From IMG/VR virus record IMGVR_UViG_2721755644_000004: a stretch of DNA of 47,543 nucleotides; one strand, 5' to 3'. Position 1 is the stretch's first letter. Every line of letters starts with the position of its first letter. Origin of the DNA: a virus (Duplodnaviria > Heunggongvirae > Uroviricota > Caudoviricetes). A model generated the notes under the pieces. It made no database searches. It had not been told where the DNA came from and was given only the letters and a program-made list of their open reading frames with translations. Position numbers and translations under genes: made by a program. This document shows, one piece after another, positions 41,750 to 43,594 of this stretch.

Positions 41750-41905
41750 ATGGATACTATCGATCTTGGCAACAGCGAATCTCTGGTATGTGGCGTGTTC
41801 CCCAACCAGGACGGTACGTTCACCGCGATGACGTATACCAAAAGCAAAACGTTTAAAACCGAAAATGGTGCCCGTCGCTGGCTGGAAAGAAACTCAGGTG
41901 AGTGA
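41750..41905 (+). CDS. YdfA-like small protein (51 aa from MDTIDLGN...)
   Basis: Qin dicB-operon-like order; internal ATG with SD; family from memory. Confidence 0.5.
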   Translation: MDTIDLGNSESLVCGVFPNQDGTFTAMTYTKSKTFKTENGARRWLERNSGE

Positions 41906-41906
41906 T

Positions 41907-42036
41907 ATGGATTTCAACACAATCATGGAAAAGGCTTACGAAGAATACTTCGAAGGCCTTGCCGAAGGCGAAGAAGCCCTCAGCTTCAGTGAGTTTAAAC
42001 AGGCGCTTTCCAGTTCGGCAAAATCTAACGGCTGAT
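41907..42036 (+). CDS. YdfB-like small protein (43 aa)
   Basis: MDFNTIMEKAYEEYFEGLAEGEEALSFSEFKQALSSSAKSNG. Confidence 0.45.
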
Positions 42037-42064
42037 AAGCGAAACAGCACCGCGAGGAATCAGT

Positions 42065-42283
42065 ATGCAGAAACGAGAACCCGTCATCATCGTGCCAGAC
42101 TATACCGATGATGAACTTTATGAGTGGATACACCAGAAAATTAAGGCTGCGCAGGACCTGAAATGGGCCAATGAAGCCAGGGCTAAGCAGGCTGAAAATC
42201 TGTCCGCTCTGGAGCAGGATATCACCAGGCTGGAAAAAGCAGCGGCATTAAGCATTGCCAGAATGATTACATACCCGCGTTAA
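42065..42283 (+). CDS. YdfC-like protein (72 aa)
   Basis: ORF with SD GAGGAA; order as in Qin dicB operon. Confidence 0.5.
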   Translation: MQKREPVIIVPDYTDDELYEWIHQKIKAAQDLKWANEARAKQAENLSALEQDITRLEKAAALSIARMITYPR

Positions 42284-42305
42284 TAGCTAACCAACGAGGC
42301 TAATA

Positions 42306-42680
42306 ATGGAATTTAAAGATTTACCAATGCCATTCCAGGAAATGGCAGCGAATGTGGTTCGCTCTCAACTGGCGACTCTTGACCTGAGTACCGTAGAAAA
42401 AGAAACCATCGACAATATATCCGGTAACGTACGCCGAGCCTTTATCGGGCTGTACGAAGAGAAGCAGCTCTCTGATAACCAGGATTTACATGAAAAATAC
42501 TTTCTGGAATTAATGGACATCATTAATAAAGGATTTGGCTTGTTAATGAAAAAGAAAGGGATTCGAATAGCTCCCCTCGAAAATCATTTTACAGCAAGCA
42601 GTATTAATTCCTGTGATTTAAAGCATCACACATCCGATGGGAAAGTTGAATCAAACAACAAAATATCAATTAATCATTAA
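42306..42680 (+). CDS. Hypothetical protein (124 aa), extra gene inserted in dicBF-like operon; AT-rich 3' half
   Basis: Good SD; not part of the remembered Qin order ydfA-ydfB-ydfC-dicF-dicB. Confidence 0.5.
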   Translation: MEFKDLPMPFQEMAANVVRSQLATLDLSTVEKETIDNISGNVRRAFIGLYEEKQLSDNQDLHEKYFLELMDIINKGFGLLMKKKGIRIAPLENHFTASSINSCDLKHHTSDGKVESNNKISINH

Positions 42681-42974
42681 TTTATTCACAGGTGAGGTAG
42701 AGTGCGTGCGCCGGACACGGATAAGAATCCGGCACTGACAGTTTACTGAAAGGATATTTCCATGAAAAGTCAGACCATAACGCGAAAGCGCACGGCGAGG
42801 TAGCTGGTTCATAGATAGCCTGTCGTTAAATTTTCGTCGACCGTGCGCTTCCGGTTGTGACACTCCGCGAAATGGCGCGGCGGTAAGTATGACGGGGTTA
42901 TTCCTTCCCCGTTGAGGACACCGGGTTGTCAGGTTGACCATACGCTTAAGTGACAACCCCGCTGCAACGCCCTC

Positions 42975-43032
42975 TGTTATCAATTTTCTGGTGACGTTTG
43001 GCGGTATCAGTTTTACTCCGTGACTGCTCTGC
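42975..43032 (+). ncRNA. dicF: DicF-like small RNA (ftsZ-targeting sRNA of Qin-type prophages) with its own terminator
   Basis: TTTCTGGTGACGTTTGGCGGTATCAGTTTTACTCCGTGACTGCTCTGCCGCCCTTTTT matches my recollection of E. coli DicF; GGCGG...CCGCC stem plus T-run. Confidence 0.6.
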
Positions 43033-43220
43033 CGCCCTTTTTAAAGTGAATTTTGTGATGCGGTGAATGCGGCTATGCGCACGCGGAACAGTTAAAGCAG
43101 TAAGGCGGTCTTTTACTGGCGTAACGAGCATCAACTAACCCGGCGTTAATTGTTAACTGGTTAACGTCACCTGGAGGCACCAGGCACTGCATCACAAAAT
43201 TCATTGTTGAGGACGCGATA

Positions 43221-43409
43221 ATGGAAACGTTATTACCAAACGTTAATACGTCTGAAGGTTGTTTTGATATTGGTGTTCTGCTCAGTAACCGGGAGTTTAC
43301 TGAAGATGCCATTAATATGAGGAAATATGAGCCTTATCTGCTCAATGATAATTCCATACTTTCCCGAATTGCTCTTCTTGAACTTGGTATTTTCGGAGAG
43401 CGTCAATGA
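43221..43409 (+). CDS. dicB: DicB-like cell-division inhibitor (62 aa)
   Basis: METLLPNVNTSEGCFDIGV...TEDAIN.RK resembles DicB N-terminus as I recall it; located after DicF as in Qin. Confidence 0.65.
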   Translation: METLLPNVNTSEGCFDIGVLLSNREFTEDAINMRKYEPYLLNDNSILSRIALLELGIFGERQ

Positions 43410-43594
43410 CTTCAGCATTTGCACTGATGATGACGGTTTTTCTTATAACGGGTGAATCACAGAATGTGATTACCGGAATTTATGCCAGTAAAGAATCCTG
43501 CCTCCAGGCAAGAGACGAGCAAAAAATTTCTGGTGAATGCCTCCCGGTAAAAAAAGTATCGCTGTACCTGAATAACGAAACACCGGCTGGATAA
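43406..43594 (+). CDS. YdfD-like small membrane protein (62 aa)
   Basis: N-terminal hydrophobic segment; overlaps dicB stop; order as in Qin. Confidence 0.5.
   Translation: MTSAFALMMTVFLITGESQNVITGIYASKESCLQARDEQKISGECLPVKKVSLYLNNETPAG

What the first reader, a model, noticed from the sequence alone, without database searches (positions are those of the whole stretch)
41750..43594. dicB/DicF-type cell-division control operon with an extra inserted gene
Seen: downstream of the cI-like gene and an OL-like operator lies a run of small ORFs matching my recollection of the Qin ydfA-ydfB-ydfC-dicF-dicB-ydfD order, including a 58-nt element matching the DicF sRNA with its own terminator and a 62-aa DicB-like protein. 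An additional 124-aa ORF (42306-42680) sits between the ydfC-like gene and DicF, followed by ~300 nt of structured leader including a 9-bp stem GGGTTGTCA...TGACAACCC. Established: DicF and DicB inhibit FtsZ and Min function when the repressor is lost. Inference: the inserted gene is an uncharacterised addition to a module that manipulates host division and phage receptors.
Basis: partly seen in the sequence, partly recalled or inferred. Interest (0 to 1): 0.5.

Follow-up and report, generated by a model that had tools for sequence, protein, structure and literature searches.

The report
dicBF operon with extra accessory gene
This is the well-known prophage operon that blocks E. coli cell division (DicF RNA plus DicB protein), here carrying one extra small gene of unknown function that K-12 lacks but about one in eight sequenced E. 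coli genomes has, so it is a real but fairly ordinary variant.

Summary
Window 41750-43594 carries ydfA, ydfB, ydfC, a 124-aa ORF, a ~300-nt leader, DicF, dicB and a ydfD-like gene, in that order, downstream of a cI-like repressor and an operator palindrome.

- **DicB:** matches Pfam DicB (E 6e-37).
- **The leader:** it is the published RNase III/RNase E processing region of DicF and is 96% identical to K-12.
- **The 124-aa ORF (42306-42680):** absent from K-12 Qin. It is not new to databases: ≥80% of its length occurs in 672 of 5,426 complete E. coli genomes, always annotated "hypothetical", and it matches PHROG 6937.
- **It is a real gene:** dN/dS is 0.1-0.3 and GAGG lies 6 nt before the ATG. 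It is predicted as a soluble three-helix protein with a disordered tail, with no recognisable fold, domain or defence-system match.
- **Family structure:** it is one allele of a narrow family with a conserved ~50-aa N-terminal module joined to unrelated C-termini.
- **Location:** the family fills a variable slot just upstream of the DicF leader, often with a convergent small gene.

Function remains unknown. The best guess is a co-transcribed, protein-binding accessory factor. Interest is modest.

The parts
40496..40711 (-). cro-like gene (context: divergent partner of the repressor)
   Evidence: Pfam P22_Cro, E 7.5e-15; RefSeq calls it a 'Cro/CI family transcriptional regulator'.
40741..40802 (.). 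OR-like region with two exact GTAAC-N4-GTTAC palindromes (40741-40754 and 40789-40802)
   Evidence: Pattern search: 5 matches at <=1 mismatch against 0.76 expected; 0 of 100 shuffles reach 5. Also seen in the repeat finder pairs I3 and I7.
40761..41477 (+). cI-like repressor (HTH_3 + Peptidase_S24 fold, 238 aa) with Ala in place of the catalytic Ser (VEGDAMT)
   Evidence: Pfam HTH_3 E 3.8e-17 and Peptidase_S24 E 2.1e-16. Alignment with lambda CI and LexA. RefSeq start taken.
41483..41507 (+). hairpin plus T-run after the repressor stop (AACCCGC-ATTCATT-GCGGGTT-TTTT), terminator-like
   Evidence: Read directly from the sequence. The consensus scan did not list it.
41552..41565 (.). OL-like operator palindrome GTAACTCTTGTTAC, just after a TTGACT hexamer (41542-41547); presumed dicBp/pL region
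   Evidence: The promoter assignment is inference from the sequence.
41750..41905 (+). ydfA (DUF1391), 51 aa
   Evidence: Pfam DUF1391 E 8.8e-28; 49/51 identical to K-12 YdfA.
41907..42035 (+). ydfB, 42 aa
   Evidence: 41/42 identical to K-12 YdfB; phrog_2061; RefSeq 'protein YdfB'.
42065..42283 (+). ydfC, 72 aa
   Evidence: 67/72 identical to K-12 YdfC; phrog_1744.
42304..42686 (.). segment that replaces about 22 nt of K-12 Qin (left break after GCTAA, right break before CAC[A/G]GGTGAGG); its 3' half has 33-36% G+C against about 50% in the flanks
   Evidence: Alignment A1; composition profile.
42306..42680 (+). 124-aa accessory ORF (WP_000394528.1, PHROG 6937). The conserved N module is residues 1 to about 53. 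Predicted helices are 8-23, 32-53 and 59-83, and the tail 91-124 is predicted disordered.
   Evidence: ORF list. GAGG at 42296-42299, 6 nt before the ATG. phrog_6937 E 5.7e-78 over 124/124 positions. dN/dS 0.12-0.34. AF2 model.
42687..42984 (+). untranslated DicF precursor leader, shared with K-12 Qin
   Evidence: 270/281 identical to K-12 over 42704-42984; near-invariant in 9 loci; the published processing region (PMC10448788, PMC5069750).
42776..42859 (+). predicted long imperfect helix (42776-42797 pairs with 42838-42859). The 5' end of the published 190-nt RNase III product maps to about 42848, inside it.
   Evidence: Fold and pair table. The 190-nt species is from PMC10448788. The mapping is arithmetic from the DicF 3' end.
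42923..42959 (+). 9-bp stem GGGUUGUCA / UGACAACCC with a 19-nt loop
   Evidence: Present in the MFE and centroid folds. Kept in 9 of 9 loci, with one A-to-G change giving a G.U pair.
42985..43037 (+). DicF sRNA (53 nt) followed by a T-run
   Evidence: Rfam RF00039, 76.7 bits, E 2.7e-15; identical to K-12 dicF.
43221..43409 (+). dicB, 62 aa
   Evidence: Pfam DicB E 6.4e-37; NCBIfam NF049927 at 114 bits against a cutoff of 100; 39/62 identical to K-12 DicB.
43406..43594 (+). ydfD-like DUF1482 gene, 62 aa; its start overlaps the dicB stop
   Evidence: Pfam DUF1482 E 2.9e-15; 28/63 identical to K-12 YdfD.
43687..46125 (+). 812-aa RecE/YdfE-type exonuclease (context: the next gene of the early-left operon)
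   Evidence: Pfam Rv2179c-like E 1.3e-67 and Exonuc_VIII E 2.7e-33.

Best explanation
The region is the early-left (pL-equivalent, 'dicBp') operon of an apparently complete lambda-like E. coli prophage. It is a Qin-type dicBF operon: ydfA-ydfB-ydfC-[124-aa ORF]-leader-DicF-dicB-ydfD-like-exonuclease.

In the lysogen the cI-like repressor presumably holds the promoter shut through the GTAAC-N4-GTTAC operator. After derepression one polycistronic RNA is made. RNase III and RNase E cut DicF out of the conserved leader, as published for K-12. DicF represses ftsZ translation, and DicB blocks division via MinC.

The 124-aa ORF is a genuine protein-coding accessory gene embedded in this transcript. 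It has its own Shine-Dalgarno sequence, no promoter and no terminator. It is one allele of a narrow, Escherichia-centred family with two parts:
- a conserved ~50-aa N-terminal two-helix module (MEFKDLP...Q..AA...NVR.AF..LY);
- an unrelated, interchangeable C-terminal part.

The family occupies a recombinationally plastic slot between ydfA/ydfC and the DicF leader.

The mechanism I commit to is inference. It is a small soluble cytoplasmic protein that acts by binding another protein after induction. The N module would be the constant docking or oligomerisation unit, and the C-terminal helix plus disordered tail would set target specificity. This is a host-takeover or anti-defence type of accessory factor, comparable in role to Kil, Ral, CIII or Gam in lambda's pL operon. 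It is dispensable for DicF and DicB action, because K-12 lacks it.
For: Operon identity:
- Rfam DicF; Pfam DicB, DUF1391 and DUF1482.
- 93-98% amino-acid identity of YdfA, YdfB and YdfC to K-12, identical DicF, and a leader 96% identical.
- K-12 annotation for the gene order.

Operator: an exact palindrome occurs three times, at OR and OL.

Processing and function of DicF, DicB and YdfD come from the literature: PMC10448788, PMC5069750, and, by title and abstract only, PMC6832061 and PMC8835842. The RNase III site maps into a predicted helix.

The ORF is a real gene:
- GAGG lies 6 nt upstream of the ATG.
- dN/dS is 0.12-0.34 overall and 0.14-0.39 in each third against diverged alleles.
- Length and the C-terminal ISINH are conserved in alleles down to 65% identity.
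- Its 90%-identity cluster has 640 members, and the exact protein is on >=1000 contigs.

It is operon-embedded: 22 nt after the ydfC stop. The only promoter-like hit overlaps its ATG, promoter-like sites are fewer than in shuffles, and no terminator follows it.

It is soluble and helical: no hydrophobic segment (maximum 19-residue Kyte-Doolittle score 0.52) and pI 5.9. AF2 gives three helices at pLDDT about 70-79 plus a disordered tail.

It is modular:
- Four PHROGs share residues 1-55/63.
- An exhaustive HMMER search found 60 clusters, most matching only positions 1-50/68, with unrelated C-termini of 30-150 aa.
- A stand-alone 50-aa module exists in Xenorhabdus.

The slot is plastic. It is empty in K-12. 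The ORF stands alone here and in L007 and L008. It is paired with convergent 73-, 77- or 92-aa genes elsewhere.
Against: - There are no expression, proteomic or phenotypic data for the ORF. A search for four RefSeq accessions of the family found no paper.
- The structure model is weak overall (mean pLDDT 61, pTM 0.44), so the fold searches are uninformative rather than evidence of novelty.
- The 'binds a protein' mechanism rests only on size, solubility, helical and disordered character, and analogy with other pL-operon proteins.
- The repressor has Ala at the position of the catalytic Ser, so how and when the operon is derepressed in this prophage is unknown.
- Co-transcription is inferred from K-12 data and from the absence of signals, not shown here.
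- DicB here is only 63% identical to K-12 DicB and the ydfD-like protein only 44%, so transferring their functions is family-level inference.
Confidence: 0.6

Rival explanations
1. The ORF is a moron in the strict sense: an autonomously transcribed, horizontally acquired gene expressed from the repressed prophage that gives the lysogen a benefit, such as superinfection exclusion or defence. In this reading it is a positional analogue of sieB, which (recalled from knowledge of lambda and Rac, not checked here) lies next to kil/kilR.
For: - The 3' half of the ORF has 33-36% G+C against about 50% in the flanks, which suggests foreign origin.
- The slot is variable and carries different cassettes in different prophages.
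- In a KilR-type (Rac-like) operon the family sits between the DUF1391 gene and kilR, the position that sieB holds in K-12 Rac by recollection.
Against: - No credible promoter lies upstream. The single 9/12 match has its -10 hexamer over the ATG, and the region has fewer promoter-like sites than shuffles (2 against 6.6).
- No terminator-like site follows the ORF on the + strand.
- The ORF starts 22 nt after the ydfC stop, or 11 nt after ydfA in other loci.
- No membrane segment, unlike Sie-type proteins.
- No PADLOC match for this allele, other N-module alleles or the convergent partner genes.
Confidence: 0.12
2. The ORF modulates the division-inhibition module itself. It might temper or time the toxicity of DicB or DicF, or be the surviving half of a two-gene pair (toxin/antidote-like) with the convergent small gene seen in other alleles.
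For: - The family recurs immediately upstream of a division inhibitor: the DicF leader in 13 loci, or KilR without DicF in L015. Phage Evi has the DicF leader followed by Kil instead of DicB.
- Many alleles overlap a convergent 73-92-aa gene by 11-40 nt.
- One protein cluster is a YdfC-like protein fused to the N module (P0164).
Against: - K-12 DicF and DicB work without it (PMC5069750, PMC10448788).
- The same 124-aa allele occurs with no partner (window, L007, L008) and with a 73-aa partner (L012-L014), so the pairing is not obligate.
- In Stx phages the N-module protein sits between a DUF2303 gene and a PAPS-reductase-like gene, with no DicF or DicB in the 6-kb locus examined.
- The P0164 fusion is a single cluster and may be a gene-calling artefact.
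Confidence: 0.15
3. The ORF has no function of its own. It would be a decaying or hitch-hiking reading frame: a conserved 5' stub reading into whatever DNA recombination placed behind it. Alternatively, the segment matters only as RNA, as a spacer or Rho/RNase target in the precursor.
For: - C-termini are unrelated between alleles and begin just after codon ~53.
- Truncated forms of 106 and 109 aa are common.
- The last 34 residues are predicted disordered.
- Many genomes lack the gene.
Against: - Purifying selection acts in every third of the gene, including the tail. Between the window and L012, codons 91-124 show dS 1.8 against dN 0.26.
- Length is preserved and the C-terminal ISINH is conserved at 65-81% identity.
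- The Shine-Dalgarno sequence is good.
- The N module has been kept, with invariant residues, over synonymous divergence of dS about 1.
Confidence: 0.1

Closest known systems
dicBF operon of cryptic prophage Qin, E. coli K-12 (ydfABC-dicF-dicB-ydfDE under DicA/DicC)
   Same: - Same gene order and orientation.
- DicF identical (53/53).
- Leader 96% identical, including the region of the RNase III and RNase E sites.
- YdfA, YdfB and YdfC are 93-98% identical.
- The DicB and DUF1482 families are present.
- A divergent repressor/cro pair lies upstream.

   Different: - An extra 124-aa gene in a ~383-nt segment that replaces about 22 nt between ydfC and the leader.
- DicB is only 63% identical and the YdfD-like protein only 44%.
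- The repressor is a 238-aa HTH + S24-fold protein, not the 135-aa DicA.
- The exonuclease gene is intact (812 aa), whereas K-12 ydfE is a pseudogene.
- The host prophage looks complete rather than cryptic.
dicBF-type operons of EHEC/STEC prophages and phages PPompW and Evi (135-aa ORF plus a convergent 77-aa ORF between ydfC and DicF)
   Same: - Same slot, with the same left junction (GCTAA|TAATGGAATTT).
- Same N-terminal module in the sense ORF.
- Same leader and DicF.

   Different: - The C-terminal 80 residues are unrelated (PHROG 1363 rather than 6937).
- A convergent 77-aa gene with its own AGGAGG Shine-Dalgarno is present there and absent here.
- The right junction differs.
- Evi carries Kil instead of DicB.

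Early-left (pL) operon accessory genes of lambda and Rac (kil/kilR, sieB, ral, cIII, gam). This comparison is from general knowledge, not tested here.
   Same: The position in the phage map: between the immunity region and the recombination/exonuclease genes. These are small proteins co-expressed on derepression. The family also occurs beside KilR.
   Different: No sequence, profile or fold similarity to any of them was detected. Pfam, PHROG annotation, PDB and BFVD searches were all negative.

Membership tests
Qin-type dicBF operon | DicF sRNA gene (Rfam RF00039 at or above the gathering score) | tested here: met
   76.7 bits against a gathering score of 48, E 2.7e-15; 53/53 identical to K-12 dicF.
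Qin-type dicBF operon | dicB (Pfam PF05358) downstream of dicF on the same strand | tested here: met
   125.5 bits against a cutoff of 27; NCBIfam 114 bits against a cutoff of 100; the gene starts 183 nt after DicF.
Qin-type dicBF operon | ydfA, ydfB and ydfC upstream on the same strand, and a DUF1482 (ydfD) gene overlapping the dicB stop | tested here: met
   49/51, 41/42 and 67/72 identical to K-12; DUF1482 E 2.9e-15 but only 28/63 identical.
Qin-type dicBF operon | Long untranslated leader from which RNase III (190-nt species) and RNase E (53-nt species) release DicF | tested here: inconclusive
   The sequence is 270/281 identical to K-12, and the expected RNase III 5' end (about 42848) falls in a predicted helix. 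Cleavage itself cannot be tested with these tools. Covariation is uninformative because the leader is nearly invariant.
Qin-type dicBF operon | Control by a DicA-type short repressor lacking a cleavage domain, with DicC | tested here: not met
   The repressor here is 238 aa with HTH_3 plus a Peptidase_S24 fold. The cro-like partner is P22_Cro family. This is a different immunity module, though the layout is the same.
PHROG 6937 / WP_000394528 family (the 124-aa ORF) | Full-length match to the family profile | tested here: met
   E 5.7e-78 over profile positions 1-124 of 124. The 90%-identity cluster has 640 members.
Moron (autonomous prophage accessory gene) | Own promoter upstream and terminator downstream, with expression independent of the phage operon | tested here: not met
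   No usable promoter and no + strand terminator around 42284-42700 in the consensus scan. This is a consensus scan only, and expression was not measured.
Known anti-phage defence systems (PADLOC-DB v2) | Significant match to any defence-protein model | tested here: not met
   No hit at E <= 0.1 for the ORF. Only E > 0.005 noise for other alleles and partner genes.
LexA/CI-type self-cleaving repressor (for the upstream regulator) | Ser-Lys catalytic dyad and an Ala-Gly cleavage site | tested here: not met
   Lys (LKKV) and Ala-Gly (EQAGYW) align, but the Ser position is Ala (VEGDAMT against lambda VEGNSMT and LexA VSGMSMK).

The most novel reading that the evidence does not exclude
The N-module proteins could form a previously undescribed modular accessory system of lambdoid early-left operons. 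It would have three features:
- a constant ~50-aa two-helix docking or oligomerisation module, which can exist alone, as in Xenorhabdus;
- a swappable C-terminal effector or specificity region attached to it;
- frequently, a convergent, overlapping small partner gene.

It would be maintained at a recombination hot spot immediately upstream of the DicF precursor. Such an arrangement would fit an arms-race function (anti-defence, exclusion or a toxin/immunity-like pair) that is fired together with the division block.
Probability: 0.15. Interest if true: 0.6.

Novelty: new variant of a known kind. Interest (0 to 1): 0.27.

Why it matters
DicF and DicB are the textbook prophage-encoded division inhibitors, but nearly all work uses the K-12 Qin allele. 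This window shows that in an apparently complete prophage the same operon carries an additional gene that is under purifying selection and is most likely co-transcribed. About 12% of complete E. coli genomes share that gene. The interval just upstream of the DicF leader is also a multi-allelic cassette slot.

If the extra protein alters host physiology or phage sensitivity on induction, conclusions drawn from K-12 about what 'the dicBF operon' does would be incomplete for many clinical and EHEC strains. The practical value is a short, well-defined list of alleles to test. The conceptual surprise is small.

Tried and rejected
- Domain and family searches for the ORF: Pfam gave only a sub-threshold VLPT hit (16 bits against a cutoff of 27), and NCBIfam and PADLOC gave nothing.
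- PDB sequence-profile search: one hit at E 0.36, rejected.
- AF2 model followed by Foldseek against PDB and BFVD: the best E values were 0.5-0.8. The only sensible hit was a 52-aa homologue from phage phi191. Generic helical-bundle hits were rejected.
- Covariation test of the leader and the 9-bp stem: the sequences are too conserved, with a covariation term of +1.07 kcal/mol and a single G.U change in the stem. This neither supports nor refutes the structure.
- A long-range pairing between leader 42882-42902 and the DicF 3' half appeared in the RNAalifold consensus but not in the single-sequence MFE fold. It was not pursued.
- The 105-aa antisense ORF 42666-42983 was considered as a gene. 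It was rejected as the reverse reading of the conserved leader; in other genomes gene callers use it to extend real convergent genes.
- A small leader ORF starting at GTG after the K-12 AAGGAG was considered from the sequences. It is interrupted by a stop after two codons in the window, so it is not conserved.
- The search for related loci with a diverse N-module alignment failed because no stretch was conserved enough. It was replaced by a degenerate DNA pattern scan.
- Literature search for four RefSeq accessions of the family found no papers.
- Obligate pairing of a C-terminal allele with a particular antisense partner was rejected, because the 124-aa allele occurs with and without a partner.
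Full report
**1. What the window is**

The region 41480-43700 is 100% identical to many E. coli chromosomes. The 47.5-kb window carries lambda-type structural and lifestyle genes:
- tip attachment protein J, tape measure, major capsid protein E, portal and large terminase;
- a DnaC/IstB-like loader;
- a lambda-type integrase that ends exactly at the window's end.

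So the locus sits in an apparently complete lambdoid prophage, not in a Qin-like remnant.

**2. Checking the observation**

Rfam finds DicF at 42986-43037 (76.7 bits, E 2.7e-15). The 53-nt K-12 dicF is identical at 42985-43037.

The protein genes match as follows:
- dicB (43221-43409) is a full-length Pfam DicB match (E 6.4e-37) and passes the NCBIfam cutoff. It is only 39/62 identical to K-12 DicB.
- ydfA, ydfB and ydfC (41750-41905, 41907-42035, 42065-42283) are 49/51, 41/42 and 67/72 identical to K-12.
- The gene overlapping the dicB stop (43406-43594) is DUF1482, the YdfD family, at 28/63 identity.

The order equals the annotated K-12 order ydfA-ydfB-ydfC-dicF-dicB-ydfD.

Upstream lie a P22_Cro-like gene on the minus strand and a 238-aa HTH + Peptidase_S24 repressor. 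The exact palindrome GTAAC-N4-GTTAC occurs twice between them and once at 41552-41565, after the repressor's hairpin plus T-run and next to a TTGACT hexamer. Five matches at <=1 mismatch were found against 0.76 expected, and no shuffle of 100 reached five. The 'OL-like operator' is therefore real as a sequence feature.

**3. The leader**

The 304 nt between the ORF stop and DicF are shared with K-12 (270/281 identical over 42704-42984). They are almost invariant in nine independent loci.

This is the 'long untranslated region containing dicF' of Balasubramanian et al. (PMC5069750). Ragunathan et al. (PMC10448788) showed that RNase III produces a 190-nt DicF species and RNase E the 53-nt form, both from a transcript starting upstream of ydfA.

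Counting back 190 nt from the DicF 3' end gives about 42848. That position lies in the middle of a predicted 22-bp imperfect helix (42776-42797 / 42838-42859), a plausible RNase III substrate.

It is kept in all nine loci, with one A-to-G change giving a G.U pair. Leader plus DicF folds better than all 100 shuffles (z = -2.95). The sequence is too conserved for covariation to say anything.

The leader is thus already explained, and it is intact here.

**4. The extra ORF is real but not rare**

K-12 has 340 nt between the ydfC stop and dicF; the window has 701 nt. The alignment places the window-specific segment at 42304-42686, replacing about 22 nt of K-12.

Three lines of evidence show that the ORF (42306-42680) is a real gene:
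- It starts 22 nt after the ydfC stop, with GAGG 6 nt before the ATG.
- Against alleles at 95%, 81% and 65% protein identity, dN/dS is 0.12, 0.21 and 0.34. Against the two more diverged alleles each third of the gene, including the last 34 codons, gives 0.14-0.39.
- Length and the terminal ISINH are conserved.

It is also widespread:
- The ORF's DNA matches 896 of 5,426 complete E. coli genomes, and 672 of them hold at least 80% of it.
- The exact protein is on at least 1,000 contigs.
- RefSeq annotates it as WP_000394528.1, 'hypothetical protein'.
- It matches PHROG 6937 end to end (E 5.7e-78).
- No deposited phage genome among 50,697 carries the full-length form, but 73 carry the N-terminal part.

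It is a common, catalogued, uncharacterised prophage gene rather than a peculiarity of this window.

**5. What kind of protein**

All recognisable-similarity searches were negative:
- No Pfam, NCBIfam or PADLOC family.
- No PDB sequence relative.
- No significant Foldseek match in PDB or BFVD, with best E values of 0.5-0.8.

The physical predictions are these:
- No hydrophobic segment, and pI 5.9.
- AlphaFold2 with 25 homologues gives three helices (8-23, 32-53, 59-83) at pLDDT about 70-79, and a disordered tail (91-124). Mean pLDDT is 61 and pTM 0.44.

With a model this weak, the negative fold searches are uninformative rather than evidence of a new fold.

**6. A modular family in a variable slot**

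Residues 1-55/63 also match PHROGs 1363, 2151 and 9419.

An exhaustive HMMER search of 1.84 billion representatives finds only 60 clusters. Most match only profile positions 1-50/68, and their C-termini are unrelated to one another and to Pfam. The invariant residues are M1, K4, D5, L6, P7, Q11, A14, A15, F46 and Y50.

A degenerate-pattern scan of one genome per species found the module in six contigs:
- two in E. albertii;
- one in E. ruysiae;
- one in Xenorhabdus stockiae, where it is a stand-alone 50-aa ORF;
- two MAG contigs, labelled Veillonella parvula and soil Proteobacteria, that carry DicF and look like enterobacterial prophage DNA.

Nothing was found in any other species' representative genome. 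The family is therefore narrow.

Its genomic position is constant: right after ydfC or ydfA and right before the DicF leader. Everything between varies:
- The slot is empty in K-12.
- The 124-aa ORF stands alone here and in two loci where it follows ydfA directly.
- The 124-aa ORF is joined by a convergent 73-aa gene in L012-L014.
- A 135-aa allele is joined by a convergent 77-aa gene in O103 and O157 strains, PPompW and Evi.
- 106-, 133- and 121-aa alleles are joined by other convergent genes.

The convergent genes are small, soluble and of unknown family.

The family also occurs beside KilR without DicF. In Stx phages it lies between a DUF2303 gene and a PAPS-reductase-like gene. It is therefore an early-left-operon accessory gene in general, not a DicF/DicB-specific one.

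The low G+C of the ORF's 3' half (33-36%) and the three different right-hand junctions indicate cassette exchange by recombination. Whether K-12 lost a cassette or the others gained one cannot be decided.

**7. How it most likely works**

Shown here: the sequence identity of the operon parts, the coding constraint on the ORF, its embedding without detectable promoter or terminator signals, and its modular family.

From the literature:
- Transcription runs from dicBp through dicF, followed by RNase III/E processing (PMC10448788).
- DicF represses ftsZ translation (PMC5069750).
- DicB inhibits division and protects against phages that use ManYZ (PMC6832061, cited by title and abstract).
- YdfD is a lysis protein (PMC8835842, cited by title and abstract).

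Inferred: the ORF is translated from the same polycistronic RNA after derepression and acts as a small protein-binding factor. The N module would be the constant docking unit and the C-terminal part would set specificity. I put about 0.6 on the overall description. Within it, I put about 0.4 on the binding-factor mechanism specifically.

The rivals are each at 0.10-0.15:
- an autonomous moron or exclusion gene;
- a modulator or partner of the division-inhibition module;
- a functionless frame or an RNA-only role.

**8. Regulation caveat**

It has Ala where the catalytic Ser should be: VEGDAMT at 41203-41223. Direct RecA-stimulated self-cleavage is therefore doubtful. K-12 DicA also does not respond to SOS and is relieved by an antirepressor (PMC10448788). 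The trigger for this operon is open.

**9. Verdict**

The object is a known operon with a common, uncharacterised accessory gene. The modestly new points are three: the gene belongs to a modular N-module family, the ydfC-DicF interval is a cassette slot, and both are untouched by the K-12-centred literature I could search. Novelty: a new variant of a known kind. Interest: about 0.27.

Noticed in passing
window 40761-41477 (motif at 41203-41223): The cI-like repressor has the S24 peptidase fold, the Ala-Gly site (EQAGYW) and the Lys (LKKV). It has Ala at the catalytic Ser position: VEGDAMT against lambda VEGNSMT and LexA VSGMSMK. A related repressor in L014 has Thr at that position and lacks the Ala-Gly site. 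Self-cleavage on SOS is doubtful.
   Followed up: partly
L007 2180-3467 and L008 2171-3459 (E. coli GN06098 and Ec-U14-1): In these prophages DicF is followed by a truncated dicB, then isrK and C4 antisense RNA (Rfam) and a Rha-family gene, and then a second, intact dicB. This looks like a P1/P7-like c4/ant-type immunity cassette inserted into dicB.
   Followed up: no
window 42666-42983 (- strand): A 105-aa TTG-start ORF runs antisense across the conserved DicF leader. In other genomes gene callers use the same frame (MNQLPRRALSRY...) to extend real convergent cassette genes by about 50 residues. This is probably an annotation artefact.
   Followed up: partly
window 34404-34575, 30273-30462, 31162-31408, 1090-1288 (all - strand): Rfam hits elsewhere in the prophage: sok antitoxin RNA (a hok/sok locus), STnc100, three tRNA genes in a cluster, and IS009.
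   Followed up: no
window 43687-46125: The 812-aa exonuclease combines an Exonuc_VIII (RecE) N-terminal part with an Rv2179c-like 3'-5' exoribonuclease domain. It appears to be the intact counterpart of the K-12 ydfE pseudogene, which is disrupted by an IS2 insertion sequence.
   Followed up: no
window 42882-42902 with 43016-43036: The RNAalifold consensus pairs the leader sequence GGCGGUAAGUAUGnCGGGGU with the 3' half of DicF, which would compete with the DicF terminator hairpin. The single-sequence MFE fold does not show this pairing, so it is not robust.
   Followed up: partly
L020 985-1137 (Xenorhabdus stockiae); protein P0164: A stand-alone 50-aa copy of the N module ends at a stop right after ...FTSLYEAN. 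One protein cluster (P0164) is a YdfC-like protein fused in frame to the N module through a GTG at the module's start codon position.
   Followed up: no
window 40074-40499 (- strand): A YdaT_toxin-family gene (141 aa) lies directly downstream of the cro-like gene, as in Rac and Qin-type immunity regions. The same arrangement recurs in most related loci.
   Followed up: no
L022 (contig labelled MAG: Veillonella parvula) and L023 (MAG: Proteobacteria, soil): Both contigs carry DicF and an N-module ORF. L023 also carries a ydfA-like gene and a hok/sok locus, typical of an enterobacterial lambdoid prophage. The Veillonella label is probably a binning error.
   Followed up: no
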